Source: Archangium sp.
Lineage (GTDB): Bacteria; Myxococcota; Myxococcia; Myxococcales; Myxococcaceae
DNA: 64,000 nucleotides
Direction: 5' to 3'
Assembly: GCA_035910535.1 (NCBI GenBank)
Contig: JAMHXF010000097.1
Coordinates: 14,295-78,294 of the forward strand
The position numbers and the translations under genes were made by a program. Within the stretch, counting starts at the first letter, position 1. Each line of letters begins with the position of its first letter. The notes under the pieces were generated by a model. It had not been told where the DNA came from. It did no database searches and worked only from the letters and a program-made list of their open reading frames with translations. Positions 21,944 through 42,732 of the stretch are shown here, piece by piece.

Positions 21944-23653
21944 TTACTTCTTGAACTTGCCCATCACGTCGCCGAGGCGGGCCTTCGACTGCTCGGCCTG
22001 CTTCTTGAGGTACTCGCGGTAGTCGTCGCCACCGTCGTTGAGCAGGGCCTTGATCGACAGGGCGATCTTGCGGTCGCTGGTGTTGATGTCGATGATCTTG
22101 ACCTCGACCTCCTGGCCCTCGGCCAACACGTCGCGCGGGTTCTCGACGCGCTCGTCGCGGATCTCCGAGACGTGCACGAGGCCTTCGATGCCCGGCTCGA
22201 TCTCCACGAAGCCACCGAAGTCGGTGACCTTGGTGACCTTGCCCTTGACGCGGCTCGAGACCGGGTGGCGCTCCGAGAGCGTGTCCCACGGGTCCTGGAG
22301 CAGCTGCTTGATGCCGAGGCTGAAGCGCTCGTTCTCGACGTCGATGTTGAGCACGCACGCCTCGACGATGTCGCCCTTCTTGTAGAGCTCACCCGGGTGC
22401 TTGACACGCTGGGTCCACGAGATGTCGGACACGTGCACGAGGCCGTCGACACCGTCTTCGACACCGACGAACACGCCGAAGTCGGTGACGTTGCGAACGA
22501 TGCCCTTGATGACAGAGCCGATCGGGTACTTGTCCTCGAGGACAGTCCAGGGGTTCTGCTCGATCTGCTTCATGCCGAGCGCGATGCGCTTGGCCTTGGG
22601 GTCGATGTCGAGGACGACCGCTTCGACTTCCTGACCGACTTCAAGCAGCTTGCTGGGGTGCTTCACGCGCTTGTTCCACGTCATCTCGCTGACGTGCACC
22701 AGGCCTTCGACGCCCTGCTCGAGCTCGATGAAGGCGCCGTAATCGGTGAGCGAAACGACCTTGCCCTTGACGCGCGTACCGACCGGGTACTTCTCGTCGG
22801 CGCGGTGCCACGGGTCTTCCTGGATCTGCTTGAGACCGAGGCTGACGCGCTCCTGCGCGGGGTCGAACTTGAGGACGATGACCTTGACCTCGTCACCGAC
22901 GTTGAACATCTCCGACGGGTGGCCAACGCGGCCCCACGACATGTCGGTGATGTGCAACAGACCGTCGATGCCGCCGAGGTCGATGAAGGCGCCGTAGTCG
23001 GTCAGGTTCTTGACCTGGCCCTTCATGATCGCGCCTTCCTTCAGGTTCTTGAGCGTTTCCTTCTTCTGCTCTTCGCGCTGCTTCTCGAGCAGCACGCGGC
23101 GCGAGAGGACGATGTTGCCGCGCTTCTGGTTGAACTTGATGACCTTGAACTCGAATTCCTTGGCCAGGTACTGGTCGAGGTTTCGAACCGGGCGAATGTC
23201 GACCTGGCTGCCCGGCAGGAACGCCTTGACGCCGATGTCGACCTGCAAGCCACCCTTCACACGGCCAGTGATGATGCCCTTGATGATCTGGTCGTCTTTG
23301 ACGGCGGCCGAGATCTCATCCCAGATCCGCATCTTGTCGGCCTTCTCTTTCGAGAGGACGACCATGCCCGTGTCATTCTCGCGGGACTCGAGGAACACCT
23401 GAACGGTGTCACCCGGCTTCACCGTGACTTCGCCCTTGGGGCTGGTGAACTCGGAGATCGCGACCTGGCCTTCAGACTTGTAACCGATGTCGACGATCGC
23501 GAACTCACCGGTGACCCGAACCACGGTCCCCTTGATGACTTCGCCTTCCTTCACGAGGCCGGTGCGACCGCCCTCCTTGAGGGAAGCCTCAAACATCGCT
23601 GCGAAATCCTCTTCGCCTTCAAAGCCGGTCGACTGATTGACGTTCTGCTGCAT
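21944..23653 (-). CDS. rpsA: 30S ribosomal protein S1
   Basis: 569 aa with six repeated S1 OB-fold modules (G.V..V..FGAF(V/I)(D/E)(L/I)..G..GL(V/L)H(I/V)S(E/D)). Confidence 0.97.
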   Translation of the reverse strand: MQQNVNQSTGFEGEEDFAAMFEASLKEGGRTGLVKEGEVIKGTVVRVTGEFAIVDIGYKSEGQVAISEFTSPKGEVTVKPGDTVQVFLESRENDTGMVVLSKEKADKMRIWDEISAAVKDDQIIKGIITGRVKGGLQVDIGVKAFLPGSQVDIRPVRNLDQYLAKEFEFKVIKFNQKRGNIVLSRRVLLEKQREEQKKETLKNLKEGAIMKGQVKNLTDYGAFIDLGGIDGLLHITDMSWGRVGHPSEMFNVGDEVKVIVLKFDPAQERVSLGLKQIQEDPWHRADEKYPVGTRVKGKVVSLTDYGAFIELEQGVEGLVHVSEMTWNKRVKHPSKLLEVGQEVEAVVLDIDPKAKRIALGMKQIEQNPWTVLEDKYPIGSVIKGIVRNVTDFGVFVGVEDGVDGLVHVSDISWTQRVKHPGELYKKGDIVEACVLNIDVENERFSLGIKQLLQDPWDTLSERHPVSSRVKGKVTKVTDFGGFVEIEPGIEGLVHVSEIRDERVENPRDVLAEGQEVEVKIIDINTSDRKIALSIKALLNDGGDDYREYLKKQAEQSKARLGDVMGKFKK

Positions 23654-23886
23654 GTGATGGGTTGTCCTGGGAACTGCAAAAGGTGCTGCGGCCCGAAGTT
23701 GGTACCGCCTGCGAGCGGGGCTGGTCGCGCAGGTTGGAACTCCGCTCGGTGTGAGAGGAATCGTTCAGGGCGGTTAGCTGAACCCGCCGTGGGATGCAAG
23801 GCAGGGAGCGCCCACCGTTTTCAGCGGGTAACGCTGCGGGGAGTCAGCTCTCCATGGAGACGTGGAGGTAGTCGAAGCGATGACGC

Positions 23887-26800
23887 TCACGAATCGAAGC
23901 CGGCCCTGAGGGTGTGCCCTGCGCTCGAGAGAGCGAGATCGCCGCGGGCATTGAGTTCAGCGACGGCAGCGACAATTCCATTCCTGAAGCGAGCCGTCGC
24001 AGCGCCGAGGCCGAAAGCATCGCGGAGGAGCGCTACGAGTTCGTCTTCATTCAGCCCAGCGTTCAGTTGGAGCACAGCGCGGACCCCCGCGACGTATTCG
24101 CTCGGCGCGATCAACTCGGCGTTCGAATCCGCGTCGCGCCGATTCCTCGGCATGACCCGGCGCCCAGCAAGCGCCCACCAGGGATCTCGGTGTTCAATGC
24201 CGCTCGCATTGCGGAAGTCACGTAACGCGCTGGCGAGTCGCTCAACGATCCGAGCCCCAGCCCGCCGATGCCCGAAGGCATCCATGAGACGATCTCTGAG
24301 TACCTCGTCATGAACTGGCCCCTCGACCTCAAGAACACTGCGACACAACCCTGCGATCGTCGATTGTGTTGCATCAACCAGCTCGCCCTGTTGCGGTGAC
24401 AACGCGGCTGTCCGATACGGCTCGAAAATCGGCGCAGCCAGCGTACGTCTGCTGGGCGAAGTCCCCTTCTGAACAGGAGCAACCGGCGGTGGACCAACGC
24501 TCTCGCTCGATTCGCCGACCAGTCGGGCAACGTTTGCGCCTGCAGCGGGCGTTGCCTTGAATAGCCGTGCCTTCTGCCTCGATTCTTCGATCAGCTTCAG
24601 CAACCGCTCCGTTTGTTTCTTGCGGTCATGCCACCAGTCGGTGCTCCAGAGCCTGTGCAGTTCCCAACCGAGACCGCGCAGCACTTCCTCTCGGAGCCGG
24701 TCCCGATCGCGTGCCGACTCCGCAGAGTGGTACGCGACGCCATCGCACTCAATGCCACACACGAAGCGACCTGAAACCTCCGTATCCGTGACACCGAAGT
24801 CGATGCGGTAACCAGAAACACCAACCTGAGGAACCAAGTCGATACCGTGAGCCGCAAGCGCGGTCAGAACCTCTTGTTCGAAAGGAGATTCCGTCTGCGC
24901 CAGAGCCATTACGAGCGGGCCCGCGACGAGCTCACCGGTCTCTGCGTACTTCAAGAAATCCCTGAGAAGCACAGCACCACGCATCTGCTCACCAACGACC
25001 ATGTCGTCGGCACGCATCGAAGAAAACACACGCATTTGCTCACGTGCACGTGTCGCGAGAACGTTCAACCGACGCCAGCCCGATTGGCCGCTCAGCGGAC
25101 CAAGATTGTACCGAATCTTGCCGTCGAGACCTTTCCCGTAGGTAACGCTCAAGAACACAACGTCCCGCTCGTCGCCTTGAATGCTTTCAAGGTTCTTCAC
25201 GAAGAACGGCTCGGGCTTGTCGAGAGCGAGGAACTCGTCGAGTTGTGGGTTCGTGCGTCGCTCGCCCTCCAGCAGATCCTGAATACGAAGCTGCTGCGGC
25301 CGAGAGAACGTTCCGACGCAAAGTGATCTGTTCGGATGTTCGCGCGCGTGCCGGACAACCGCAGCAACCACCGCCGCGGCTTCTTTTGTGTTGGTCCCCT
25401 TCCCTTCGTACTGAGCACCAGCGACGTGTTCGAAACTCAGGCCAAACCTGCTCACGTTGCGATCAACGCTCGGAAAAGTGAGTAGAGAAGATTCGTAGAA
25501 GTTCTGATTCGAGTACGCGATCAACGACTCATGTCGGCTCCGGTAGTGCCATCGAAGCTGCGCGCCATAGAGTCCAGCCGCCTGGGCCAATTCGAGAATG
25601 CTCTCGAGATCTTCAAACAACGGTTCTCCATCTTCGTCTTCTTTGACCTCGATCTCCCCAAGTTGAGCCGCAAAGAAGTTCGTCGGCGGGAGTTGCTTGG
25701 GGTCGCCGACGACGACCAACTGCTGCCCCCGGGCAATCGAACCAAGAGCATCCTCACAAGTGAGCTGGGATGCCTCGTCGAAGATGACGATGTCGAACTG
25801 ATGCTTGGTATCGAGTGTCTGCGCGACCGTCATGGGACTCATCAAGAAGCACGGCTTGATGGCGCGGACCGCGTGGAACCCACGCTGAACCAACTGCCGA
25901 ACAGGTTGATGGCCCCGCATGCGCGACATCTGATCGCGGAGAAACTTTGATTCGCCTGCTGCGGAAAGCAACTGCTCTTGAGTCCGTCGGCGCAGCCGGG
26001 TGGCGACCGCGCGCTTGTTACTTTCCAATGCTTGCTTATCCAGCACGCAGAACTCATTCACTTGCGCAGAGTGCGCGCCCCCTTCGAACCGCCCAAGGAG
26101 CGGGGCCTGTGACTCGACGTCATCGATCCATACCTCGAGGAAACGACGCTCAAACGCAGCGCCAAGATCCGCCCACGCGAGGTCACCCGACACCGCCGCT
26201 TCGACAAGAGACCGTGCAGAGGTGGCGACGGCCTTGGAGAGTGCATCCTGATGGTTCTGCATCTCTCGCCATCGCTCGCGACTGCCCTCGAGCGCTTCAA
26301 TTTGTTCATTCAACTGAACGAACGTTGACCTTGCGAAAAAGGTAGCGGGCCAGCCACCAGCCTCTTGGATGCTGGACCAAAGAGCACGCGCCTCGGTGAC
26401 CTTGACGGCCAACTGCTGAAGCGAATCCACGTTCGGCGCCGGTGTTTCTGCGACAGAGAATACCGAGGGAGAGAGCGACAGCCTGGCGGCTGTATCTCTG
26501 AACGAGTTGCCCCAACGCACCCAGTCCATCAAAGCAGTCCAGTCACTGTCAGCACCGCGCCAAAGCCGTCCGAAAAACCGTGCCGACGCATCACTTCCAT
26601 TGAGCGACACTCTCTCGGCCCTCGCGCGGAGCAGAGTGGAGACCCGCTGTCCCGCATCTAACGCGCCTCGCCAAGCTGACTCAGACATTGAGGCCTTCAA
26701 CTGGCGTCGAGCAGCCCGCCAAGTGCCGCTAAGCCAGGCCCAGATACTGCGACCACGTTCGATGACGATGGTCACTGCAGTCTGTAATTCCTCAGGTCGA

Positions 26801-28611
26801 GCAGACGACTTCAGTAACCCTCGCGTCTCATTCTCCAATACGGCGAACATTCGACCTCGTTCGACGACCTGCAGCGCATGAGCAGACGCCTCCATCCAGT
26901 CGGGAGCATTGGCAACAGTCGCAGGAATGCCGGGTGCGCCAGAAAGCACGGCTGCGAGTTCCGTCAGCGACTCCGCTGCCGTATTCAGTGACTGCGCCTT
27001 GAACCCGAACTGAGCTTCGACGATTCGTTCCTCTTGAATGATCGAGCGAACGAGAGGCCCGATGCGATCAAGCGCAGCAAAGAGGACGTCGCGACGCTCA
27101 CGCGGGAACTGTTGGACAGAAGAACCTCGCCACGGATGGTCAGCGAGAGAACATCCAAGCCGAGTGACCGTTCCAGACAGTTCATCGAGAGTTCGCTTCG
27201 TCTCATCGAACTGAGCCTTCGTGACCCCTTCCGTCGGGACCGAGACCCGGATGTTTGGAACACCTTCGAGCCGAAGGAGTCGGCTCATTACTTCGAAGGG
27301 AGACATCCCAAGCGGAGAGACTGGCGAATGAACAGCCTTCGTGTAGGCAGTCAGCGTTTGTCGAACTTTCGCCAACTCTGCTTGTTGCTTCGGTTCGTCG
27401 TCGCACGACAACGACGAGGTGTCCCAAGCACGTTTCAACTCATCAAGCAGACCTTTCTTGTTCGCCTTCGTGCTGTGAATTTCAAGACAAAAATCACCGA
27501 GTCCGGCCTTACGAAGACGGTCGTAGACAACATTGAGTGCCGCCTGCTTCTCCGCAACGAACAACACCGTCTTTCCTCGAGCGAGGGCGCCAGAAATAAG
27601 ATTGGTGATTGTCTGCGACTTACCTGTACCTGGCGGGCCTTGAATGACCAGATTCCTACCTGTCTCCACGGCAGCAAGAGCACGCTGCTGCGTCGAGTCA
27701 GCATCTACAACCTGAAATGTCATTTCAGGAGGAAAACCAGCATCAAGGTCCATCCCCCGAACCTCCGGAGGGAGTGACGAAAGCGCACCGCTGTCACCAC
27801 TTCGCCGTGCGAGCAACTCGACGATCGGGTGCGCGGCAACTGCGGTTGCATTCTTCTTGAGATCCTCGTGCATCACGAATTTCTGGAACGAGAAATTCCC
27901 CAGGAGACAGGCAGCGCTGACTCGCCACCGACTATTTGAAGCGGTTTCTCCCCTCAGTTCAGAAAGCCAATCTATAACATTAAAGCTCTCGTCAGAGATC
28001 TGCTTCAACTGCACGCCATGTTGAGACTTGAGGTACTCAACAAGAGCGGGATTCACGAGCGGATCCTCCTCGCTACCGCGTACCATCCACGCACCTTTCG
28101 GGGTCCGGCTCAGCTTCGCTGGCAGCAACAGTAGCGGGGCGCGTCGTTCCTTCTGGGAACTGGTGTCTTCGAAGTAGTGGAGAAAGCCCAGAGCGAGAAA
28201 CAAGGTTGCGACACCCTGCTCTTCAAGTGACGCACGGGCGGTATCAACAAGGCGTCGAATCTTGGTGTCGAGCAAGTCCGAGGGCAGCTCGATATCGAGG
28301 AACTCGTCAACATCTTCTGGATCAAGTCCGCTCGTCACCTCCGCAAAAAAGTCCGCATCCCCAAGCGCGTCGGAAAAAGTCTCATCCGAGGGCACCGACA
28401 ACGCAGCATTGAAATCTCGCGGTGGGGTTCCTCGAAACTGCAGCGATTTACCCTGAACGATCACTCGTTCCCAGATCGCGATTGGCTGCTCTCCCGCGAT
28501 CTCCACGGCCAAAGAGCGCTTGCCACTCGAATAATTGAGCAGCCTATTTCGCATCGATGTGTCGACGAGCTTTCGCCGACACGCCTCAACAAAGTCATAC
28601 ACGGTGGCCAT
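23887..28611 (-). CDS. DUF4011-type N-terminus / SF1 (Upf1-like) helicase / Vsr-DUF559-like endonuclease / C-terminal DUF3320-like protein
   Basis: VIQGPPGTGKSQTI (Walker A), IVIFDEASQL, VVVGDPKQLPP, IQGDERDVVFLSVTY, RLNVLATRAREQMRVF. The nuclease module is SGYRIDFGV...GIECDGVAYHSAESARDRDRLREEVLRGLGWELHRLWSTDWW. I prefer the ATG at 28611 (MATVYDF...). The track ORF begins at a TTG at 28677. G+C is visibly lower than in the flanks. Confidence 0.85.
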   Translation of the reverse strand: MATVYDFVEACRRKLVDTSMRNRLLNYSSGKRSLAVEIAGEQPIAIWERVIVQGKSLQFRGTPPRDFNAALSVPSDETFSDALGDADFFAEVTSGLDPEDVDEFLDIELPSDLLDTKIRRLVDTARASLEEQGVATLFLALGFLHYFEDTSSQKERRAPLLLLPAKLSRTPKGAWMVRGSEEDPLVNPALVEYLKSQHGVQLKQISDESFNVIDWLSELRGETASNSRWRVSAACLLGNFSFQKFVMHEDLKKNATAVAAHPIVELLARRSGDSGALSSLPPEVRGMDLDAGFPPEMTFQVVDADSTQQRALAAVETGRNLVIQGPPGTGKSQTITNLISGALARGKTVLFVAEKQAALNVVYDRLRKAGLGDFCLEIHSTKANKKGLLDELKRAWDTSSLSCDDEPKQQAELAKVRQTLTAYTKAVHSPVSPLGMSPFEVMSRLLRLEGVPNIRVSVPTEGVTKAQFDETKRTLDELSGTVTRLGCSLADHPWRGSSVQQFPRERRDVLFAALDRIGPLVRSIIQEERIVEAQFGFKAQSLNTAAESLTELAAVLSGAPGIPATVANAPDWMEASAHALQVVERGRMFAVLENETRGLLKSSARPEELQTAVTIVIERGRSIWAWLSGTWRAARRQLKASMSESAWRGALDAGQRVSTLLRARAERVSLNGSDASARFFGRLWRGADSDWTALMDWVRWGNSFRDTAARLSLSPSVFSVAETPAPNVDSLQQLAVKVTEARALWSSIQEAGGWPATFFARSTFVQLNEQIEALEGSRERWREMQNHQDALSKAVATSARSLVEAAVSGDLAWADLGAAFERRFLEVWIDDVESQAPLLGRFEGGAHSAQVNEFCVLDKQALESNKRAVATRLRRRTQEQLLSAAGESKFLRDQMSRMRGHQPVRQLVQRGFHAVRAIKPCFLMSPMTVAQTLDTKHQFDIVIFDEASQLTCEDALGSIARGQQLVVVGDPKQLPPTNFFAAQLGEIEVKEDEDGEPLFEDLESILELAQAAGLYGAQLRWHYRSRHESLIAYSNQNFYESSLLTFPSVDRNVSRFGLSFEHVAGAQYEGKGTNTKEAAAVVAAVVRHAREHPNRSLCVGTFSRPQQLRIQDLLEGERRTNPQLDEFLALDKPEPFFVKNLESIQGDERDVVFLSVTYGKGLDGKIRYNLGPLSGQSGWRRLNVLATRAREQMRVFSSMRADDMVVGEQMRGAVLLRDFLKYAETGELVAGPLVMALAQTESPFEQEVLTALAAHGIDLVPQVGVSGYRIDFGVTDTEVSGRFVCGIECDGVAYHSAESARDRDRLREEVLRGLGWELHRLWSTDWWHDRKKQTERLLKLIEESRQKARLFKATPAAGANVARLVGESSESVGPPPVAPVQKGTSPSRRTLAAPIFEPYRTAALSPQQGELVDATQSTIAGLCRSVLEVEGPVHDEVLRDRLMDAFGHRRAGARIVERLASALRDFRNASGIEHRDPWWALAGRRVMPRNRRDADSNAELIAPSEYVAGVRAVLQLNAGLNEDELVALLRDAFGLGAATARFRNGIVAAVAELNARGDLALSSAGHTLRAGFDS

Positions 28612-28713
28612 TGGAGCGTTCTCGGAAAGAGATGTTCTAAACCCGAGAATACGCACGAACCGAGCCAGCAGAGACAACAGAAAAAATCTGGAGGATAAAG
28701 ACTTCGAACCGCC

Positions 28714-31700
28714 TCAATGAAAGTCGCGGCTCTCGATGGGCGCCTCGAGCGCGGCGTTCGGCTCGAAGAAACGCTCGGCGAGAACGTGGAGCACCTCGTC
28801 TTGCTTCTGCACCTTGCCTTCGACGCCCAGGAACGTGCGCGTGCGCGCCAACACCGAATACGCCTCGAACACGTCGCGCCACACGACGAGGTTGAGCAGC
28901 CCGGTCTCGTCTTCCAACGTCATGAAGGTCACGCCGCTCGCGGTGCCGGGGCGCTGTCGGCAGATGACGACGCCGGCGGCGCGCACGTATTGCCCATGCT
29001 GCAGCTGCCTCGCCTCTTCAGCGCTCTTGAGGCCCTGTGCATGAAGTCGTCGGCGAACCGGCCCTACCGGGTGACCACGCGTGCTGTGAGCCGTGCGCGA
29101 GTAGTCCCAGGAAATCGACTGCTGCACCGACAACCCGGGAAACGAGAGCTGCGGCTCGGAATCAACCGCGAGCGGCGTCGACCCGCCATGGAGCCCCTGC
29201 GCCTGCCACAACGCCACGCGCCGCGACGGCTCGATGGACTGCAGCGCCCCCGCTTCGGCCAGCAACGTGACCGACCTCGCCTGCACCCCGCTCCGCCGCA
29301 CGAGCTCGGTGACCGACTGCGAATCGCGCACGTCGCGCAACCTCGTCGCGTCTCCTTCATTGAGGCCCTTCACGAAGCGCAGCCCCATGCGCAGCGCGTA
29401 GTCGTGCTTCCCGTCGGTCGGCTCCAGCGTGCAGTTCCACTCGCTCGACTTGAGATCAATCGACAACACCTGCACGCCGTGGCGCTTCGCGTCTTCGACG
29501 AGCGTCGCCGGTGAATAGAACCCCATGGGCAACGAGTTGAGCAGCCCACACGTGAACTCCACCGGGTAGTGGGCCTTCAAGTAGCTGCCGGCGTAGCTGA
29601 TCAACGCGAACGACGCGGCGTGGCTCTCGGGGAACCCGTAGTCACCGAAGCCGCGAACCTGCGCGAACACCCGCTCGGCGAAGTCAGGCGCGATGCCGCG
29701 CGCGATCATGCCGTTGACGAACTTGTCGTGGTGGCCTTCGAGCTTGCCGTTGCGCTTCCACGCCGCCATGTCGCGCCGGAGCTGGTCTGCTTCACCCGGT
29801 GAATAGTTCGCGCCGACGATGGCGATGCGCATCACCTGCTCTTGAAACAGCGGAACGCCGAGCGTGCGGCTCAGCACCGGCTCGAGACACGGGTGCGGGT
29901 AGGTGACGGGCTCGGCGCCGTTTCTGCGTCGGAGGTACGGGTGCACCATGCCGCCGGTGATCGGCCCCGGCCGCACGATGCTCACCTGCACCACGAGGTC
30001 GTAATAGCTCTTCGGCTTGAGCCTCGGCAGCATCGACATCTGCGCGCGGCTCTCGATCTGAAACACGCCGATGGTGTCGGCCTTCTGAATCAGCGCGTAC
30101 GTCAGCGGGTCATCTTCAGGAATCGTCGCCAACGAGATCTCGCGCCCTCGATGCTTCGCGATCAGCTCGAACGACTTGTGCAGGTGCGTGAGCGACCCCA
30201 ACGCCAACAGGTCGACCTTGAAGAGCCCCAGCGTCTCGACGTCGTCCTTGCTCCACTGAATGACGGTGCGCCCCTCCATCGTCGCGTTCTCGACGGGCAC
30301 CAGCGTCGAAATCGGGTCGTGGCCGAGAATGAACCCACCAGGGTGAATCGAGAGGTGTCGCGGGAACCCTTCGAGCTCCTGGCAGATCGACATCAACAAC
30401 TCGAAGCTCTGCGCCGACGTGTCGAGGCCCACGTCTTTCGCGTAACGACCGTCAGGCGAGTCGTAGTGGTGCAGCAACTTCGCGTAACGATCGAGCTCGG
30501 TCTGCGCGACGCCGAGCGCTTTGCCGACCTCACGAACCGCCGACCGCGCGCGGTAGCTCGTCACGTTCGCCACCATCGCGGCGTGCGTACGCCCGTGCTT
30601 TTCGTAGAGGTGCTGAATCACCTCTTCACGTCGCTCATGCTCGATGTCGAGATCGATGTCCGGCGGCTCCGCGCGCTCGAGCGAGAGGAAGCGCTCGAAC
30701 AAGAAGCCCATCTTCACGGGGTCGACGGCGGTGATGCCGAGGCAGAAACACACCGCTGAGCTCGCGGCGCTGCCTCGCCCCTGACAGATGATGTCGTTGG
30801 CCTGGCAGAACTCCACCAGCTCACGCATGGTCAGAAAGTAGCCGCCGTAATCGAGCGTCTCGATCAGCTGCAGCTCCTTCTTCAGCTGCGCCGTCATCGC
30901 GTCGTTCACCACGCCCCGTCGCGCCGCGCCCTCGAAGACGAGCTGCTCGAGCCACTGCGTCGTCGACGTTCCTCCCGGCAGCTTTTCTGTCGGGTAGCGG
31001 TAGCGCAGCTCCGACATCGAAAACGTGCAGCGCGCGGCGACTTCTTCGCTGCGACGCACGAGCTCCAGGCAGTCACCGTAGCGCCCTTCGAAGAGCGACC
31101 TCGACAACGCGTGCGAGTCGTTGGCCTTCAACAGCCGCCCCGCCTCCGGCAGCGAGCGTTGGTGCCGAATACAGGTCACCACGTCTTGAAGCCGACGCTT
31201 CGAGCTGTGGTGGTAGAGCACCTCAGGCGCTGCGACGAGCGGAACGCCGAGCGCCTTCGCGCGGGCACGTTGCGCGGCTTCGGTGTCGACGTCTTCGGGG
31301 AGAAAGTGCCGCGCGATGAGGCCGTAGAGCCTGTCTCCAAACGCCGGCTGCAGCGCTTCGTGAGGGCCGTCGAGCGTCCACAAAGCGATCAGGTCTTCCG
31401 CGTGCGCTGCGACTTCGGCGCGCGACACTTCAGAGCGACCCTTCTCGCAACGCATGCGGCCCAGCGTGAGCAGTTGGCAGAGGTTCGCGTACCCACGTCG
31501 CGTCATCGCCAGCAGCACCAACGTCGCGCCGTCGTCGAGCGTCACCTCGGAGCCGACGATGAGCTTGATGCCGAGCGCCTTCGCCTTTTCGTACGCGCGC
31601 ACCACGCCGTACACCCCGTCGCGATCGGTGATGGCGATGGCCGGGCAGCCGAGCTCGTACGCCGCCTCGACCAGCTCGTCGGGGAAGCTCGCGCCCTCGA

Positions 31701-31743
31701 GGAACGAGTAGTTGCTCTTGCACCACAACGGCACGCCGCTCAT
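28714..31743 (-). CDS. dnaE2: error-prone DNA polymerase DnaE2 (ImuC)
   Basis: PHP N-terminus (MSGVPLWCKSNYSFLEGAS) and Pol III alpha core. The ATG at 31743 overlaps the imuB stop (ATGA). The track ORF starts 54 nt further upstream. Confidence 0.93.
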   Translation of the reverse strand: MSGVPLWCKSNYSFLEGASFPDELVEAAYELGCPAIAITDRDGVYGVVRAYEKAKALGIKLIVGSEVTLDDGATLVLLAMTRRGYANLCQLLTLGRMRCEKGRSEVSRAEVAAHAEDLIALWTLDGPHEALQPAFGDRLYGLIARHFLPEDVDTEAAQRARAKALGVPLVAAPEVLYHHSSKRRLQDVVTCIRHQRSLPEAGRLLKANDSHALSRSLFEGRYGDCLELVRRSEEVAARCTFSMSELRYRYPTEKLPGGTSTTQWLEQLVFEGAARRGVVNDAMTAQLKKELQLIETLDYGGYFLTMRELVEFCQANDIICQGRGSAASSAVCFCLGITAVDPVKMGFLFERFLSLERAEPPDIDLDIEHERREEVIQHLYEKHGRTHAAMVANVTSYRARSAVREVGKALGVAQTELDRYAKLLHHYDSPDGRYAKDVGLDTSAQSFELLMSICQELEGFPRHLSIHPGGFILGHDPISTLVPVENATMEGRTVIQWSKDDVETLGLFKVDLLALGSLTHLHKSFELIAKHRGREISLATIPEDDPLTYALIQKADTIGVFQIESRAQMSMLPRLKPKSYYDLVVQVSIVRPGPITGGMVHPYLRRRNGAEPVTYPHPCLEPVLSRTLGVPLFQEQVMRIAIVGANYSPGEADQLRRDMAAWKRNGKLEGHHDKFVNGMIARGIAPDFAERVFAQVRGFGDYGFPESHAASFALISYAGSYLKAHYPVEFTCGLLNSLPMGFYSPATLVEDAKRHGVQVLSIDLKSSEWNCTLEPTDGKHDYALRMGLRFVKGLNEGDATRLRDVRDSQSVTELVRRSGVQARSVTLLAEAGALQSIEPSRRVALWQAQGLHGGSTPLAVDSEPQLSFPGLSVQQSISWDYSRTAHSTRGHPVGPVRRRLHAQGLKSAEEARQLQHGQYVRAAGVVICRQRPGTASGVTFMTLEDETGLLNLVVWRDVFEAYSVLARTRTFLGVEGKVQKQDEVLHVLAERFFEPNAALEAPIESRDFH

Positions 31744-33248
31744 TCGACGAAGCCCTGCAGCATCCACCTCCGGCGGAGCACGTCGAGGTAGCACCACACC
31801 ACCGCGCCGCGCGTGAGCTCGAGGAAGTAGTAGTGCCGCTTCACTTCACTGCGCCACCAACCTCCGTTGAGGAGGTACGGGCCGTGGTGCTTCACCACCG
31901 GGCCACCTCGCTCGCCGAGCACCAGCCAGCCGTCGGGTTCACGCACCGGCCTCGAGGGCAAGGGTTCGGCCTTGAAGCGCATGCGGCGAATTCGAAGGGG
32001 CATCGGTGACGTGGGCGCTGGAGGTAGAGGCGTGTCGTGGAGTTGTTCGAAGTGCAGCCGCGACTCCGGCAGGTGACCTGAGCCGTGCACGAGCTGCTGC
32101 ACCGCGATCGGGCCGAAGGCGGCGCGGACCCGCTCGAGCGTGCGCAGCGTGTCGGAGGGATCACGCCGCGGCCGATCGACCAGCGCGAGCTGCGTGGTGA
32201 CAGCCGGGGCGCCTCCGGCTTCGAAGAAGAGCCACTGCACCCCCAGCGTCTCGTTCTCTTTGCTGGCCGCCAACGTCAGTCGCACCTGCTCGGCCACACG
32301 CGCGCCGTCCAGCGTCGCTTCGGCCAGCGCCACGTTCAACTTCAGCGGCGCATTCACGACGCCACGCGGCCTGTCGAAGCCCAGCGTCACCGACAAGGTG
32401 CGCAACGCGAGCTGCCGCTCTTCGAGCACGTGCATCAACCGCCGCAGCACCGACAGGCTCGAGAACACCAGCTGATTCGAGTCGAGCACCGGCTCATCGA
32501 AGTCGAGCCGCGCTTCGACCGGCACCACCACCGCCGCCGGCTGAAATGGTTCGACGCGCTTGCCCCCCGCGAGCAACGAGAGCCGCTCAGCCGCCCCGCC
32601 GTAGCGCTTGCGCAGCCCACCCACCGGCAACGTGAGGAACTGCCCCAGCGTCTCGATGCCCAGCTTCTTCAACGCGAGCAGCGCCGTCGGCGCGAGGCCC
32701 ACGCGGCGCAACGGCACCTTCGCCTGCAGCTGCCTTTCTTCTTCTGCCGACGTCAGCAGCTTCACCTGGTCGACGCGCAGCGCCTTCGCCACGGCGTAGC
32801 TACCGAAGCGCTTGAACCCCACGCACAGCGAAGCGCGCCACCCGGCTTCACGCAGCGCGGCCAGCACCTTCGCGCCCCATTCTTCGAGCGACGGAAACAA
32901 CTGCGACAGCCCACTCACGTCGGCCCAGAGCACGCCCGGCTCGTCAGCCGACGGCTCGATGGCGGGGCTCCAGCTGCGCAACAACGCGAGCAGCTCGGCC
33001 ACGGCGAGCGCCACCTGCTCGGGCGCCACCACCGCCGCGTGCAGGTGCGCGCACAACGACAACGCCTCGCCGTACTTGAGCCCCGGCACCACGCCATGCC
33101 GCCGCGCCGCTTCGTTGATGTGGGTGATCACCCCGCGTGGCGCGTCTTCTTCGACGACCGCCACCGGCCCAGCGGCCCACGACGGGCGCTCACGGAGCAG
33201 CAGCTGCAGCGGCAACACCGGCACGTCAACGCAGGCCAACCGGTCCAC
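31740..33248 (-). CDS. imuB: ImuB, Y-family polymerase-like SOS mutagenesis protein
   Basis: LACVDVPVLPLQLLLR...HGVVPGLKYGEALSLC is UmuC/DinB-like, and the gene sits between imuA-like and dnaE2. The start is uncertain: GTG at 33248 or TTG at 33239. The track ATG at 33323 overlaps imuA by 98 nt. Confidence 0.85.
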   Translation of the reverse strand: MDRLACVDVPVLPLQLLLRERPSWAAGPVAVVEEDAPRGVITHINEAARRHGVVPGLKYGEALSLCAHLHAAVVAPEQVALAVAELLALLRSWSPAIEPSADEPGVLWADVSGLSQLFPSLEEWGAKVLAALREAGWRASLCVGFKRFGSYAVAKALRVDQVKLLTSAEEERQLQAKVPLRRVGLAPTALLALKKLGIETLGQFLTLPVGGLRKRYGGAAERLSLLAGGKRVEPFQPAAVVVPVEARLDFDEPVLDSNQLVFSSLSVLRRLMHVLEERQLALRTLSVTLGFDRPRGVVNAPLKLNVALAEATLDGARVAEQVRLTLAASKENETLGVQWLFFEAGGAPAVTTQLALVDRPRRDPSDTLRTLERVRAAFGPIAVQQLVHGSGHLPESRLHFEQLHDTPLPPAPTSPMPLRIRRMRFKAEPLPSRPVREPDGWLVLGERGGPVVKHHGPYLLNGGWWRSEVKRHYYFLELTRGAVVWCYLDVLRRRWMLQGFVE

Positions 33249-33816
33249 GGCACACCTCGTTCGTGCTCCACGTCGGCGCGTGACGCTTGTCTTTGAGCGC
33301 GCGCACCGTGAGCGTGAATTCACCAGGCGCCGACCCTGGCGCCGCCGCCCACGCCCGCATCGAGATCAGCGAATCCAACGAGCTGTCGTGCTCGCTCGCC
33401 TCGGTCAAGAAGAGCACCGCTGCGTCGTGCTTCTGCGCGAGGCCCAACATTCGCGAGAGCAACGGCGTCTGTACGCGGTGCCGCGCTGGCAGGTCGATCA
33501 CCACCAACCCGAACCCTCCGTGACGAACCAACATCTCACCGGCCCTGGGCAGCTCGACGGCCGGCACGCGCACCACCGCCACCGCCTTCAAGTCGACGCC
33601 GCTGGCTTCGACGTCGGGCGGGTAGAAGATCGAGTCGGGCCGAGAGACCCACGCCACCGGTTCTCCCGCGAGCTGCGCTTCACGAACTTTCAAGACGCCC
33701 GCCGTCAGCGCCGAAGGCCCCGAGAGCTCGCTGAGCGAAGCGCGCAGCGACTGCAGCGAAAACGGGTCTCCCGAGTCGCGGTGCTTCGTGCGAAGTGCTG
33801 AAAGAACGGTCGCCAT
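33226..33816 (-). CDS. imuA: ImuA-like (RecA/SulA-fold) SOS mutagenesis protein
   Basis: ATG at 33816 gives MATVLSAL.... LSELSGPSALTAGVL...AQLAGEPVAWV...GGFGLVVIDLP...LLSRMLGLAQKHDAAVLFLT resembles ImuA. It is the first gene after the LexA box. Confidence 0.65.
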   Translation of the reverse strand: MATVLSALRTKHRDSGDPFSLQSLRASLSELSGPSALTAGVLKVREAQLAGEPVAWVSRPDSIFYPPDVEASGVDLKAVAVVRVPAVELPRAGEMLVRHGGFGLVVIDLPARHRVQTPLLSRMLGLAQKHDAAVLFLTEASEHDSSLDSLISMRAWAAAPGSAPGEFTLTVRALKDKRHAPTWSTNEVCRGPVGLR

Positions 33817-33836
33817 CGGACCCACATCCTTCGCAC

Positions 33837-33853
33837 CTGAACGCTCGTTCAGC
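33837..33853 (-). promoter_or_regulatory. LexA (SOS) box of the Myxococcus type
   Basis: CTGAACGCTCGTTCAGC fits every position of CTRHAMRYBYGTTCAGS, the M. xanthus LexA box as I recall it. It contains the perfect palindrome CTGAACG/CGTTCAG. It lies 21 nt upstream of the imuA ATG. Confidence 0.8.
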
Positions 33854-33927
33854 AACACCCCGTGTAACTCACTGAGATCGCATACGTTGTGGAACCCCCG
33901 GTTCGACAAGAACGTTGAGAGGCGCCC

Positions 33928-35820
33928 ATGAACCCACATCTTCTCCTCGCGGTACTCGCTGTCATCGACGCGCCCGTCACGCACGTGACGGTGTTCACCA
34001 ATCAAGCCCGCGTGGTTCGAGAGGCGAAGGTGCCCGTCAGCGGCACGCAGCGCCTCGAGTTCCCCACGTTGCGAGATTCGATCGATCTCTCTTCAGTGCG
34101 CGTCGAAGCGCAGGGCGCGGAGATCAACCGGGTCGACATCGAGCGTGTGACGCCTGAGCAGCTGCGCACCGACGACGCGAAGAAGCTGCTCGAAGCGCTC
34201 GAGAAGGTCGACGTGGAGCTCGAGCGCCTCAACCAGGAACGCGCGGTGCTCAACGCGCAGCGCGACGCGCTCCATCGCCTCAACCCGTCGGCGCCCGCGA
34301 GCGAGCCGCTCAAGCCCGCGCCGAAGTTGAACGCCGCCGGCTGGGCCCAGGGCGCGCAGTTCATCGCCGATGCGCTCGGTCGCGTGCAGGTCAAGCTGCG
34401 TGACGGTGAACGGGCGCTCAAGAAGCAGAACGAGAAGCGCAGCGAGCTGCTGGAGCAGGCGCGCAAGCTGGGCAACCCCGAGACGACCTCGGGGTGGAAG
34501 ATCGTCGCGCAGACGTCGGGCAACGGGCCTGCGACGTTGACGCTCACGTACCTGGTGATGAACGCGCAGTGGACCCCCACGTGGGACCTTCAGCTGCAGC
34601 CCGACACCAACACCGTCGCGCTCTCGCTCGCGGGCCTCGTCTCGCAAACCACCGGTGAAGACTGGGCGCAGGCGACGCTCGCGTTGTCGACGGCCATTCC
34701 TTCGAGTGCGGTGACGGCGCCGAAGCTGGCCACGTGGAAAATCGGCGTCAGCGATCGCTTCATTCCCACGCCGACGCCAATCTCTTCACCCCTCGCCCCG
34801 CCGCCGCCCGTGCAGCCGCTGGCGCGGGTGCGCACCGAAGAAGATCTGCTGCGCGCGCGGCTGCAGCGCCTGGGCGCCGTCACCGTGAAGACGGCTGAAA
34901 TGCCGCGCCGGTTCGCCGCCGATACAGCGGAGTTCGATGAGGAAGAAATCAGCAGTGGGTTTGCGTCGGCAGACGCCGCGAGCAAGGAGCTCTCGCCGGC
35001 CCGGGACAGAAGAGCTGCCCCGCCGCCGCCGCCTGTAGCGCCCGCAGCGCTCGAAATGCAGCGCGTCCCTGACGTGTCCATCAGCAGCACGCGTTCAAGC
35101 GCTCCGAGCATCCCGACCACCAGCTATTCGCTCTCGCCTCCGCCTGCCTGGAGCCCGCCGCGCTTCGGCCCCGACAGCCCGGTGACGCTCGCGCAAGGCT
35201 ACGACCTGGCCTTCACGTCGCTGCAGAAAGAGACGATTCCGTCAGCGCGCGGCGCGCGTCGCGTGGCGCTGTGGGCGACGCAGTGGCCGGTGACGGTCGA
35301 GCGCAAGCTCTTCCCCGCCCTCACCACCGACGCGTACCTCGTGGCCGAACTGAAGAACCCTTCGCAGCAGGTGCTGCCCGGCGGCCCGGCGCAGCTCTTC
35401 GTAGGCGCTGACCCCGCGGGCACGGCGCGCCTCGAGCTGGTCTCGCCAGGGGAGTCATTCACGCTGCCGCTGGGCATCGACCGCGCGCTCAAGCCCGTGC
35501 GCAACGTGCAGGTGGTCGAAGCCACGCAGGGCCTCATCAGCAAAGACGAGGTCGGCACGTACACGGTGACGGTCGAGCTCGCGAACCCGTACCGCGCGCC
35601 GGTCGCCGTGCGCGTCGTCGACCAATGGCCGGTGACGTCGCAGAAGGAGGTCGAGATCAAGCTCGTCAGCGCGCAGCCGACAGCCACGCAAGACGCGAAG
35701 AAGGGCTCGCTCGAGTGGCGGTTGACGATCCCTCCGCAGCAGAAGCAGGTCTTCACGTTCGCCTACACGGTGAAGCGCCCCAGAGGTTGGAAGCTGCAGC
35801 AGCAGGAGGTGGTGCGATGA
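33928..35820 (+). CDS. DUF4140/DUF4139-type (MuiA-like) protein, paralog 1
   Basis: The N-terminus VTHVTVFTNQARVVREAKVPVSGTQRLEFPTLRDSIDLSSVRVEAQG is typical of this family. It also has a coiled-coil segment, a Pro-rich insert and the C-terminal DUF4139-like region. Confidence 0.8.
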   Translation: MNPHLLLAVLAVIDAPVTHVTVFTNQARVVREAKVPVSGTQRLEFPTLRDSIDLSSVRVEAQGAEINRVDIERVTPEQLRTDDAKKLLEALEKVDVELERLNQERAVLNAQRDALHRLNPSAPASEPLKPAPKLNAAGWAQGAQFIADALGRVQVKLRDGERALKKQNEKRSELLEQARKLGNPETTSGWKIVAQTSGNGPATLTLTYLVMNAQWTPTWDLQLQPDTNTVALSLAGLVSQTTGEDWAQATLALSTAIPSSAVTAPKLATWKIGVSDRFIPTPTPISSPLAPPPPVQPLARVRTEEDLLRARLQRLGAVTVKTAEMPRRFAADTAEFDEEEISSGFASADAASKELSPARDRRAAPPPPPVAPAALEMQRVPDVSISSTRSSAPSIPTTSYSLSPPPAWSPPRFGPDSPVTLAQGYDLAFTSLQKETIPSARGARRVALWATQWPVTVERKLFPALTTDAYLVAELKNPSQQVLPGGPAQLFVGADPAGTARLELVSPGESFTLPLGIDRALKPVRNVQVVEATQGLISKDEVGTYTVTVELANPYRAPVAVRVVDQWPVTSQKEVEIKLVSAQPTATQDAKKGSLEWRLTIPPQQKQVFTFAYTVKRPRGWKLQQQEVVR

Positions 35821-37376: not shown

Positions 37377-38113
37377 AGTCGCGCGTAGACGTCGCCTGAC
37401 GTCGAGTCGACAGGGAGCGCGCGGAGGCGCTCCTTCATTTCGTCGGCGGTGAGCCAGCGCTCGTCGCGGAACTTCATCGTCTCGACGGGTGAGTAGCGGA
37501 ACTCGTAGTGCCCGAGCGTCATGCAGCGGTCGATGCACGCCAGCGCCGTTTCACGCGCGATGGGGATCATCTCGAAAGACAGCGCCGGCACCGCGTGACT
37601 CAGCCCCTCGAGCACGTCGAGCTCGAAGCCTTCGACGTCGATCTTCACGAAGTCGGGCTGGCCGTATTCGGAGATCAACGCGTCGAGCGTGGTGACGGGC
37701 ACCTCGAGCCTCTCGCCCCACTGCGTGCCCTGAAACCGTTCGTCGCGCTTCACCTCTGAAATCCACTCCGCCGAGAAGGTCGAGAGCGTGGGTGACGAAA
37801 CGTTGATGTGCAACGTGAGCGCGCCCGGCTTCGACGCGATGCCCACGGGGAGAAGCGTGACGTCCTGGTCTTTGCCGTAGAGCCGCCGCAGCACCGAGAG
37901 CATGCGCGGCTGGGGTTCGACGGCCAGCACCCGCGCGCCGAGGCTGCGCCAGGTCCCAACGCGATCACCGACGTGCGCGCCGACGTCGATGCACAGCGAG
38001 CCCGGCTTCATGAACTGGCTGTAGAAGCGCCGGCGACCGCCATTGCGCCAGACCTGCCCGTAGTAGATGACGAGCGATCGCAGCAGCCCGTACGTGTGAG
38101 ACAGCGTGCTCAT
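37355..38113 (-). CDS. FkbM-family SAM-dependent methyltransferase
   Basis: CIDVGAHVGDRVGTW...VLAVEPQP...DFVKIDVEGFELDVLEG are typical FkbM-domain motifs. Confidence 0.85.
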   Translation of the reverse strand: MSTLSHTYGLLRSLVIYYGQVWRNGGRRRFYSQFMKPGSLCIDVGAHVGDRVGTWRSLGARVLAVEPQPRMLSVLRRLYGKDQDVTLLPVGIASKPGALTLHINVSSPTLSTFSAEWISEVKRDERFQGTQWGERLEVPVTTLDALISEYGQPDFVKIDVEGFELDVLEGLSHAVPALSFEMIPIARETALACIDRCMTLGHYEFRYSPVETMKFRDERWLTADEMKERLRALPVDSTSGDVYARLQSPPVS

Positions 38114-42644: not shown

Positions 42645-42732
42645 GCGCGAGTGGCGGAATCGGCATACGCAGCAGACTTAAAATCTGCGGGCCCTTTGCT
42701 GGGTCGTAGGGGTTCAAGTCCCCTCTCGCGCA
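42645..42732 (+). tRNA. tRNA-Leu (anticodon UAA), class II with a long variable arm
   Basis: Folded by hand. Acceptor GCGCGAG/CTCGCGC. Anticodon stem GCAGA/TCTGC with loop CTTAAAA (anticodon TAA at 42679..42681). Variable-arm hairpin. T-arm AGGGG-TTCAAGT-CCCCT. Discriminator A. CCA is not encoded. Confidence 0.9.

What the first reader, a model, noticed from the sequence alone, without database searches (positions are those of the whole stretch)
23887..28713. Lower-GC giant helicase-nuclease (Hhe-like architecture) appended directly downstream of the LexA-controlled imuA-imuB-dnaE2 cassette
Seen in the sequence:
- A ~1570-aa ORF carries a DUF4011-like N-terminus and SF1 helicase motifs (GPPGTGKS, FDEASQ, VGDPKQLPP, QGDERD, LATRAR).
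- It also has a Vsr/DUF559-like PD-(D/E)xK module (YRIDF...ECDG..YH) and a long C-terminal domain.
- My hand counts of individual 60-nt lines inside it gave 43% and 58% G+C. A line in dnaE2 gave 68%.
- It is on the same strand as dnaE2, separated by only 36 to 102 nt depending on the start used. An A/T-rich junction lies between them.
- I saw no integrase or transposase.

Established knowledge, from memory: this domain order matches the single-gene anti-phage system Hhe (helicase plus Vsr endonuclease) of Gao et al. 2020. imuA-imuB-dnaE2 is an SOS regulon unit.

Inference: a horizontally acquired defence-type helicase-nuclease may have been captured into an SOS-inducible transcription unit. 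Alternatively it is a DNA-damage helicase working with the mutasome. Either linkage appears unreported to my knowledge.
Basis: partly seen in the sequence, partly recalled or inferred. Interest (0 to 1): 0.7.

Follow-up and report, generated by a model that had tools for sequence, protein, structure and literature searches.

The report
Foreign helicase-nuclease gene beside SOS mutasome
A large helicase-nuclease gene of a likely anti-phage family was acquired from elsewhere and sits in a changeable gap just after a DNA-damage-inducible mutagenesis operon, but this neighbourhood appears in only this one genome and looks accidental.

Summary
Window 23887-28611 (-) is an intact 1574-aa gene with four recognisable parts: DUF4011, a Upf1-like SF1 helicase, a Vsr-like MTES_1575 nuclease, and DUF3320/winged-helix. 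Its best match is the PADLOC candidate defence family PDC-S37, over its full length. It scores below the NCBIfam cut-offs for ProA and Hhe.

Its composition is foreign: GC3 is 62.5% against 81-90% in the neighbours, and its GC lies 7.2 sd below equal-length windows elsewhere.

It lies 102 nt after dnaE2 on the same strand, with no terminator-like site between them. A perfect 17/17 deltaproteobacterial SOS box lies upstream of the cassette and is conserved in two relatives.

The linkage is not conserved. None of 88 loci encoding relatives has imuB or dnaE2 next door. The 63% and 53% relatives sit in defence-type neighbourhoods. The two nearest genomes keep the cassette and rpsA but carry unrelated about 2.1-kb fillers exactly where the helicase gene sits here.

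Verdict: this is a new member of a known kind, inserted at a variable intergenic spot. SOS read-through into it is plausible but untested. A role with the mutasome has no support. Interest is low to moderate.

The parts
33837..33853 (.). Deltaproteobacterial-type SOS (LexA) box, CTGAACGCTCGTTCAGC. It is a palindrome of the form CTGAAC-N4-GTTCAG.
   Evidence: It matches the consensus CTRHAMRYBYGTTCAGS at 17 of 17 positions and is the only such site in 64 kb (0.21 expected by chance). The consensus is quoted in bioRxiv 10.1101/2020.12.14.422803. The palindrome is conserved upstream of imuA in L083 and L084 and absent from the other 86 loci.
33226..33816 (-). 196-aa ORF in the imuA position, the first gene of the cassette.
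   Evidence: The ATG is at 33816. It has no Pfam or NCBIfam hit. ORFs of 176-196 aa occupy the same position in L083, L084 and L085.
31740..33323 (-). imuB, a Y-family polymerase-like gene. The true start is probably about 33248, overlapping the end of the imuA-position ORF.
   Evidence: Pfam IMS, 38 bits against a cut-off of 23.2. It gives only weak, sub-cut-off Pol IV hits. It is syntenic with the relatives.
28714..31797 (-). dnaE2, the error-prone DNA polymerase. The identical database protein is 1009 aa, so the start is likely near 31743, abutting the imuB stop codon.
   Evidence: NCBIfam NF004225, 1254 bits against a cut-off of 939. Pfam PHP, DNA_pol3_alpha, finger, HHH_6 and OB domains. 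P0121 is 100% identical.
28612..28713 (-). 102-nt spacer between the dnaE2 stop codon and the helicase ATG. It is relatively A/T-rich.
   Evidence: The scan found no terminator-like or sigma-70-like site here. The RNA fold shows only a weak 4-bp hairpin at the U-run. There is no SOS box here. The spacer is not shared with the 70% homologue, whose similarity starts at the ATG.
23802..28711 (-). Lineage-specific inserted segment: the helicase gene plus about 100 nt upstream and about 85 nt downstream.
   Evidence: Similarity to L083 and L084 ends at 28711-28713 and resumes at 23801-23802. The relatives carry unrelated fillers of about 2.1 kb here. No repeats flank the segment.
23887..28611 (-). 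Helicase-nuclease gene, 1574 aa, of the PDC-S37 / ProA-like / Hhe-like family.
   Evidence: PADLOC PDC-S37, 1375 bits, covering model positions 6-1540 of 1550, and Hhe 617 bits. NCBIfam ProA 1280 bits (cut-off 1500) and Hhe 868 bits (cut-off 2000). At least 7888 homologues were found.
28030..28572 (-). DUF4011 N-terminal domain (aa 14-194).
   Evidence: Pfam E 5e-32. The AlphaFold2 model of aa 1-320 has pLDDT 82 and pTM 0.75. No PDB structural neighbour reaches E <= 0.001.
27472..27696 (-). Helicase domain 1A with Walker A (GPPGTGKS, aa 325-332).
   Evidence: Pfam AAA_11, AAA_30 and AAA_19. These residues are invariant in 28 homologues. PDB sequence hits are IGHMBP2 and Upf1.
25912..27414 (-). 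Unassigned insertion of about 500 aa (aa ~400-900) between helicase motifs I and II.
   Evidence: No Pfam family maps here. It is alignable across homologues with scattered invariant Trp and His residues. It was not modelled.
25018..25818 (-). Helicase motifs II-VI (DEASQ 945-949, GDPKQLPP 969-976, QGDERD 1145-1150, VLATRAR 1184-1190).
   Evidence: Pfam AAA_11 and AAA_12. The key motif residues (D945-Q949; G969, D970, Q973-P976; Q1145-D1147, R1149; V1184, L1185, R1188) are invariant. PDB sequence hits are Upf1, Sen1 and DNA2.
24592..24882 (-). Vsr-like PD-(D/E)xK endonuclease domain (MTES_1575, aa 1244-1340). D1271, E1288, D1290 and H1295 are invariant.
   Evidence: Pfam E 4e-34. Invariant columns are listed. 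The AlphaFold2 model matches the I-Bth0305I catalytic domain (3r3p, TM 0.76-0.83 on the target) and the DUF559-like protein 3hrl.
23890..24444 (-). C-terminal DUF3320 plus winged-helix-like region (aa ~1390-1574).
   Evidence: Pfam DUF3320, aa 1413-1456, E 3e-11. The model has pLDDT above 90 here. Its similarity to the tandem winged helices of SelB is weak (E 0.04-0.1).
21944..23653 (-). rpsA (ribosomal protein S1), the conserved downstream flank.
   Evidence: Pfam S1 repeats. NCBIfam 30S ribosomal protein S1, 787 bits. It is 94% identical in DNA to L084.

Best explanation
The gene encodes a single-polypeptide helicase-nuclease of the broad DUF4011 / Upf1-like SF1 helicase / Vsr-like nuclease / DUF3320 family. 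That family includes the validated anti-phage protein Hhe, NCBIfam ProA, and the PADLOC candidate PDC-S37, which is the best match here.

It was acquired horizontally by this one lineage, probably a Myxococcota-like bacterium. It landed in a gap between dnaE2 and rpsA whose content turns over between related genomes. Its adjacency to the SOS-regulated imuA-imuB-dnaE2 cassette is therefore an accident of where it landed, not a functional partnership.

Likely mechanism (inferred by analogy with Hhe, not shown here):
- The ATP-driven SF1B motor loads on and translocates 5'->3' along single-stranded or damaged or foreign nucleic acid.
- The DUF4011 and winged-helix regions provide substrate recognition.
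- The Vsr-like PD-(D/E)xK domain cuts the nucleic acid, which restricts phage or plasmid DNA.

Expression (inferred). The gene shares a strand with dnaE2, lies 102 nt behind it, and has no recognisable terminator in between. Some transcription from the LexA-repressed promoter probably reads into it, so DNA damage may raise its expression as a side effect.
For: Family and architecture:
- All helicase and nuclease catalytic residues are invariant across 28 homologues and present here.
- The modelled nuclease fold matches Vsr-like endonucleases. The helicase core matches Upf1, IGHMBP2, Sen1 and DNA2.
- For Hhe, the literature reports a Vsr domain, activity against lambda, T3, T7 and PhiV-1, and loss of defence with the nuclease mutant E1731A.

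Foreign origin:
- GC3 is 62.5% against 81-90% in the neighbours, and the gene's GC lies 7.2 sd below windows elsewhere.
- Synteny with two genomes whose dnaE2 is 81-82% identical breaks at the dnaE2 stop codon and resumes upstream of rpsA.
- Those genomes carry unrelated fillers at this spot. One filler (L084) is clearly lower in GC than its flanks (58% vs 65%); the other only slightly (65% vs 68%).

No functional link to the mutasome:
- No imuB or dnaE2 lies next to any of 82 loci by tblastn, nor next to L086-L088 by their gene tables.
- 142 immediate neighbours show no recurrent partner. Hits to IetA, PycC, pAgo, reverse transcriptase and a type I specificity subunit are scattered among them.

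Defence context of the close relatives:
- L002 sits beside a WYL/WCX regulator and a PD-(D/E)xK nuclease.
- L086 sits among genes whose Pfam domains (SNF2, MmeI-type methylase, Helicase_C, MZB, PLD) I read as DISARM-like.
- 88 near-full-length (>=80% of the query) relatives occur on plasmids or megaplasmids.

SOS control of the cassette:
- The SOS box matches the consensus at 17 of 17 positions and is conserved in two relatives.

Read-through:
- No terminator-like site lies in the spacer.
Against: - No anti-phage activity has been shown for this protein or, as far as the searched literature shows, for PDC-S37. It scores below the curated cut-offs of both named anti-phage equivalogs.
- Many family members have housekeeping genes as neighbours. 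In P. aeruginosa a DUF4011 gene is core. Not every member need be a defence gene.
- No mobile-element signature (integrase, flanking repeats) explains how the insertion happened.
- Promoters and terminators in this kind of organism are poorly captured by the consensus scans, so the read-through claim is weak in either direction.
Confidence: 0.72

Rival explanations
1. Adaptive capture. The defence-type helicase-nuclease has been functionally recruited into the SOS regulon. LexA cleavage, triggered for example by phage-induced DNA damage or prophage induction, switches it on together with the mutasome. This coupling is selected for.
For: - The gene shares a strand with dnaE2, lies 102 nt behind it, and has no terminator-like or promoter-like consensus in the spacer.
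- A strong, conserved SOS box lies upstream of the cassette.
- The called genes directly after dnaE2 in both relatives' fillers are co-oriented with it (L083 also has one small opposite-strand ORF).
Against: - The arrangement is seen in only one genome. The next closest homologue of the helicase is 70% identical and sits elsewhere.
- 0 of 88 loci share the linkage.
- The gene keeps its own 102-nt leader, whereas the cassette genes overlap one another.
- Its strongly foreign codon usage implies a recent arrival with little time for regulatory integration.
Confidence: 0.15
2. Mutasome or repair accessory. The protein is a DNA-damage helicase-nuclease that works with ImuA/ImuB/DnaE2, for instance by processing stalled forks or gaps for translesion synthesis.
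For: - It is adjacent to and co-oriented with dnaE2.
- Vsr-type nucleases and SF1 helicases do occur in repair (established knowledge).
- A DUF4011 gene is core in P. aeruginosa.
Against: - Both genomes with the nearest dnaE2 cassettes lack it at this site.
- No family member among 88 loci lies beside imuB or dnaE2.
- Its composition is foreign.
- The nearest homologues lie beside defence-type genes.
Confidence: 0.05
3. Inert passenger. The gene is a recently landed, unexpressed or decaying piece of foreign DNA with no current function in this host.
For: - Its codon usage is strongly non-native.
- No recognisable promoter or Shine-Dalgarno-like sequence lies before the ATG.
- It is found in a single genome.
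Against: - The 4.7-kb reading frame is uninterrupted.
- Every invariant helicase and nuclease residue of the family is retained.
- Decay would be expected to have disrupted so long an ORF.
Confidence: 0.08

Closest known systems
PADLOC PDC-S37 (single-gene 'phage defence candidate')
   Same: The HMM match is end to end: 1375 bits, covering protein aa 4-1561 and model positions 6-1540 of 1550. The protein is about the same length as the model. No partner gene recurs among neighbours across the wider DUF4011 helicase-nuclease family sampled, which fits a single-gene system.
   Different: PDC-S37 is only a candidate. I found no paper that names or tests it. This copy sits in conserved core-genome flanks rather than an obvious defence island.
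NCBIfam NF058533 'anti-phage protein ProA'
   Same: It is the strongest NCBIfam hit: 1280 bits, aligned collinearly across model positions 360-1901. That span covers the DUF4011, helicase, nuclease and C-terminal parts.
   Different: The score is below the curated cut-off of 1500. The protein lacks the first ~360 residues of the ProA model. I could not find the source publication for ProA.
Hhe (HheA), the single-gene anti-phage helicase plus Vsr endonuclease of Gao et al. 2020
   Same: It has the same domain order: DUF4011, SF1 helicase, Vsr-like nuclease. The nuclease acidic and His residues are conserved. In Hhe the nuclease residue E1731 is required for defence.
   Different: The HMM scores are partial: PADLOC 617 bits, with the best stretch covering only aa 831-1331, and NCBIfam 868 bits against a cut-off of 2000. 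The Hhe models are 1797-1911 positions long against 1574 aa here. This is a sister family, not Hhe proper.
Upf1-like SF1B helicases (Upf1, IGHMBP2, Sen1, DNA2)
   Same: The motor core motifs I-VI match by sequence. DNA2 likewise combines a nuclease and a helicase in one chain.
   Different: Only the core is shared. The ~500-aa insertion, DUF4011, the Vsr-like nuclease and the DUF3320 region have no counterpart in these proteins.
imuA-imuB-dnaE2 SOS mutagenesis cassette (Erill et al. 2006; M. xanthus work in bioRxiv 10.1101/2020.12.14.422803)
   Same: The upstream three genes and their SOS box fit the described cassette.
   Different: The cassette as described in that paper has three genes. The fourth gene here is absent from the closest cassettes.

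Membership tests
Hhe (anti-phage, Gao 2020) | DUF4011 N-terminal domain | tested here: met
   Pfam PF13195, aa 14-194, E 5e-32.
Hhe (anti-phage, Gao 2020) | SF1 helicase core with intact ATPase motifs | tested here: met
   AAA_11, AAA_12 and AAA_30 hits. Walker A, Walker B and motifs III, V and VI are present here, and their key residues are invariant in the family alignment.
Hhe (anti-phage, Gao 2020) | Vsr-type endonuclease domain with catalytic residues | tested here: met
   MTES_1575, E 4e-34. D1271, E1288, D1290 and H1295 are invariant. The modelled fold matches 3r3p and 3hrl.
Hhe (anti-phage, Gao 2020) | Full-length match above the curated equivalog cut-off (NF042953, 2000 bits) | tested here: not met
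   868 bits in 4 stretches. PADLOC Hhe gives 617 bits, with its best-scoring stretch covering only aa 831-1331.
Hhe (anti-phage, Gao 2020) | Protects against phage when expressed | not testable with these tools
   This needs plaque assays in a heterologous or native host.
ProA (NCBIfam NF058533) | Score above the curated cut-off (1500 bits) with full model coverage | tested here: not met
   1280 bits. Only model positions 360-1901 of 1903 are covered, so the N-terminal ~360 positions are missing.
PADLOC PDC-S37 | End-to-end match to the family HMM | tested here: met
   1375 bits, E 0, covering aa 4-1561 and model positions 6-1540 of 1550. No curated cut-off was available here.
PADLOC PDC-S37 | Single-gene system, meaning no obligatory partner gene | tested here: met
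   Among 142 immediate neighbours of 80 loci, no family recurs more than twice.
PADLOC PDC-S37 | Residence in defence islands | tested here: inconclusive
   Yes for the relatives L002 and L086 and for scattered others. In this window the flanks are a repair cassette and rpsA.
imuA-imuB-dnaE2 SOS cassette | dnaE2 (error-prone Pol III alpha) | tested here: met
   NF004225, 1254 bits against a cut-off of 939.
imuA-imuB-dnaE2 SOS cassette | imuB (Y-family polymerase-like) | tested here: met
   Pfam IMS, 38 bits against a cut-off of 23.2. Pol IV equivalogs score far below their cut-offs, which in my reading fits a divergent Y-family protein.
imuA-imuB-dnaE2 SOS cassette | imuA | tested here: inconclusive
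   The 196-aa ORF is in the right position and is conserved in relatives, but it has no Pfam or NCBIfam hit.
imuA-imuB-dnaE2 SOS cassette | LexA operator upstream | tested here: met
   17 of 17 match to CTRHAMRYBYGTTCAGS at 33837-33853. It is conserved in L083 and L084.
imuA-imuB-dnaE2 SOS cassette | The helicase gene belongs to the same transcription unit | tested here: inconclusive
   Same strand, 102-nt gap, and no terminator-like site. However, the consensus scans are weak evidence, and there is no conservation to lean on.

The most novel reading that the evidence does not exclude
Read-through from the LexA-repressed imuA promoter makes this Hhe-like helicase-nuclease DNA-damage-inducible. 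The cell would then raise a nucleic-acid-cutting defence and an error-prone polymerase from one SOS signal. That would be a natural example of a defence gene wired into the SOS regulon by insertion at an operon's 3' end.
Probability: 0.15. Interest if true: 0.5.

Novelty: new member of a known kind. Interest (0 to 1): 0.27.

Why it matters
As it stands, this is one more member of a very large, mostly uncharacterised family of DUF4011 helicase-nucleases, with at least 7888 homologues found. Its odd address is best explained by chance insertion.

Two things give it modest value:
- The gap after the dnaE2 stop codon is a small, well-delimited cargo-swapping spot. Three related genomes carry three unrelated, co-oriented fillers there.
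- It offers a natural test of whether landing behind an SOS operon makes a defence gene damage-inducible.

It does not open a long-standing question, and it does not show a new kind of system.

Tried and rejected
- Source contig. A look-up of the window's own protein found no record. The organism is therefore inferred only from the nearest dnaE2 (a MAG labelled Archangium gephyra) and from the deltaproteobacterial SOS box.
- Literature. No paper in the library names PDC-S37. No source paper for 'ProA' turned up. Among the 15 top-ranked of 1,722 papers from the imuB/dnaE2/phage-defence search, none linked the cassette with a defence system.
- Borders of the inserted segment. I looked for target-site duplications or inverted repeats and found only short chance-level matches.
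- Second LexA site near the helicase. There is none in the spacer. One 1-mismatch half-match lies inside the gene at 26315-26328, which is at chance level.
- Promoter and terminator scans. No promoter-like site was found in 23000-34600. Terminator-like sites occurred at the shuffled background rate, and none lies in the spacer.
- Defence-hotspot idea for the dnaE2-rpsA gap. The fillers in the relatives have no PADLOC hit and only one Pfam hit, a hexapeptide transferase. 'Defence hotspot' is rejected and 'variable spot' is retained.
- Fold search for DUF4011. The model is confident, but no PDB neighbour was found.
- Sequence and profile searches of the PDB. Only helicase-core relatives and, weakly, RAP-domain proteins were found. 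No solved relative of the whole protein exists.
Full report
**What is there**

The minus strand of window 21.9-34 kb carries a row of co-oriented genes:
- a 196-aa ORF in the imuA position (33226-33816)
- imuB (31740-33323; Pfam IMS)
- dnaE2 (28714-31797; NCBIfam error-prone DNA polymerase, 1254 bits against a cut-off of 939)
- the large ORF of the finding (23887-28611 from its ATG; 1574 aa)
- rpsA (21944-23653)

The stated gap of 36-102 nt to dnaE2 is correct. The imuA name rests on position only, because that ORF matches no Pfam or NCBIfam model.

**Domains of the large protein**

Pfam gives four assignments:
- DUF4011 (aa 14-194, E 5e-32)
- a split SF1 helicase core (AAA_11/AAA_30 at ~306-380, then AAA_11/AAA_12 at 932-1198)
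- the MTES_1575 restriction-endonuclease-like domain (aa 1244-1340, E 4e-34)
- DUF3320 (aa 1413-1456)

DUF559 itself matches only weakly. About 500 residues between helicase motifs I and II have no assignment.

In an alignment of 28 homologues (39-70% identical to the window protein), the Walker A and B motifs, motifs III, V and VI, and the nuclease residues D1271, E1288, D1290 and H1295 are invariant and present here.

Sequence and profile searches of the PDB hit only Upf1-like SF1B motors (IGHMBP2, Upf1, Sen1, DNA2, nsp13). They also weakly hit RAP-domain proteins over the nuclease region.

An AlphaFold2 model of aa 1200-1574 has pLDDT 84.6. Its nuclease core lies next to the Vsr-like I-Bth0305I catalytic domain (3r3p) and a DUF559-like protein (3hrl). 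The C-terminus looks like tandem winged helices, with weak SelB-like matches. The DUF4011 region folds confidently (pLDDT 82, pTM 0.75) but has no PDB neighbour.

**Family placement**

- PADLOC matches PDC-S37 end to end (1375 bits, model positions 6-1540 of 1550). Hhe matches only partly (617 bits).
- NCBIfam gives 'anti-phage protein ProA' at 1280 bits against a cut-off of 1500, with the first ~360 model positions missing. Hhe scores 868 bits against a cut-off of 2000.

The protein is not Hhe proper.

The family is huge, with at least 7888 proteins at E <= 1e-10. The window's protein has no close relative: the next best are 70%, 63%, 60% and 53% identical.

For Hhe, the literature in the library reports a Vsr domain, activity against lambda, T3, T7 and PhiV-1, loss of defence in the nuclease mutant E1731A, and a phage counter-gene. 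I found no paper on PDC-S37 or on ProA.

**Composition**

The gene is 58.4% G+C with GC3 62.5%. Seven neighbouring genes have GC3 of 81-90%. As a 4.7-kb block its GC is 7.2 sd below the rest of the window. The anomaly is real and large.

**Is the cassette LexA-controlled?**

The consensus CTRHAMRYBYGTTCAGS is the deltaproteobacterial SOS box quoted in the M. xanthus ImuA paper. It matches at 17 of 17 positions at 33837-33853, about 20 nt upstream of the first gene. This is the only site in 64 kb, against 0.21 expected by chance.

The palindrome CTGAAC-N4-GTTCAG sits in the same place in two related genomes and nowhere else in the other 86 loci held. Sequence evidence for SOS control of the cassette is therefore strong.

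No SOS box lies in the dnaE2-helicase spacer.

**Is the linkage meaningful?**

From the helicase side:
- The 70% and 63% homologues are not near dnaE2. Neither are the 53%, 48% and 48% homologues.
- tblastn with the window's ImuA-position protein, ImuB and DnaE2 against 82 loci (1.57 Mb) found only one hit: a 28%-identical Pol III alpha about 5 kb upstream on the opposite strand, in a Dehalococcoidia genome.
- The total is 0 of 88 loci.
- The 63% homologue lies beside a WYL/WCX regulator and a PD-(D/E)xK nuclease.
- The 53% homologue lies inside a DISARM-like island carrying SNF2, an MmeI-type methylase, Helicase_C, MZB/DUF1998 and PLD.
- Across 142 immediate neighbours of 80 diverse loci, no family recurs more than twice. 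Scattered defence hits (IetA, PycC, pAgo, PDC-S06, reverse transcriptases, a type I specificity subunit) sit among many housekeeping genes.
- 88 near-full-length (>=80% of the query) relatives are on plasmids or megaplasmids, and one is in a phage record.

From the cassette side:
- The two genomes with the closest dnaE2 (82% and 81% identical) share the flanks: DUF4140/DUF4139 genes, the cassette, and in L084 a complete rpsA. The L083 contig ends within rpsA.
- DNA similarity to both ends at window 28711-28713, which is the dnaE2 stop codon, and resumes at 23801-23802, about 150 nt upstream of rpsA.
- In between, they carry about 2.1 kb of sequence unrelated to each other and to the helicase gene. 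One filler has a hexapeptide transferase and small ORFs. The other has hypothetical ORFs at 58% G+C. Neither has a PADLOC hit.
- No repeats mark the borders. The main flanking ORFs scanned (about 18.4-23.7 kb and 28.7-35.8 kb) show no integrase or transposase domain.

The gap after dnaE2 is thus a small spot where cargo turns over, and the helicase gene is this lineage's cargo.

**Transcription**

The cassette genes overlap or abut one another, but the helicase gene has a 102-nt leader. That leader is not shared with its 70% homologue, whose similarity begins exactly at the ATG.

The consensus scans find no terminator-like or sigma-70-like site in the spacer. The RNA fold shows only a weak hairpin at a U-run.

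Read-through from the SOS promoter is therefore plausible, but it is inference only.

**Conclusion**

The best explanation (confidence about 0.72) is an incidental insertion of a single-gene, Hhe-like (PDC-S37) helicase-nuclease, most likely a defence protein, at a variable spot behind an SOS operon.

The rivals are:
- Adaptive SOS capture, which is possible but unsupported beyond adjacency (about 0.15).
- A role with the mutasome, which has no support (about 0.05).
- An inert passenger, which is unlikely given the intact 4.7-kb frame and the retained catalytic residues (about 0.08).

Shown here: domains, residues, composition, synteny break, SOS box, and lack of conserved linkage. Inferred: anti-phage function, the translocate-and-cut mechanism, and read-through expression.

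Noticed in passing
L086:251-20610: The 53%-identical homologue of the helicase-nuclease is embedded in the middle of a DISARM-like gene set: SNF2, Schlafen/AlbA_2, an MmeI-type methylase, Helicase_C, MZB/DUF1998 and PLD. It may be a nested insertion or an accessory of that system.
   Followed up: partly
L084:6425-7684: The MAG labelled Archangium gephyra has a beta-lactamase-family gene inserted between the DUF4139 gene and the SOS box/imuA. It is absent from the window and from L083, so this is a second variable spot at the other end of the same cassette.
   Followed up: no
L083:8297-10004: In L083, imuB is called as 475 aa plus a separate 84-aa ORF before dnaE2. L084 has 563 aa and the window ORF is 527 aa. 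This may be a frameshift, a pseudogene or an assembly error.
   Followed up: no
window 33226-33816: The ORF in the imuA position matches no Pfam or NCBIfam model, although it is conserved in position and size in three related genomes. It may be a divergent ImuA or ImuA'-type protein.
   Followed up: partly
window 33928-37400: Paralogous DUF4140/DUF4139 genes lie divergently from the cassette and are conserved in the relatives, where two tandem copies are called. Their function is unknown.
   Followed up: no
window 26315-26328: TGAACGAACGTTGA, a one-mismatch match to the TGAAC-N4-GTTCA core, lies inside the helicase gene. Four such hits in the window is within what shuffles give, so it is probably chance.
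   Followed up: yes
window 42645-42732: A tRNA-Leu (anticodon TAA) is the only tRNA or Rfam hit in the 64 kb. It is not adjacent to the inserted segment.
   Followed up: yes
literature (PMC10250203): In P. aeruginosa a large DUF4011 gene is a core gene present in every isolate, and it marks the right flank of defence hotspot cDHS1. Some members of this superfamily are therefore fixed chromosomal genes rather than mobile cargo.
   Followed up: no
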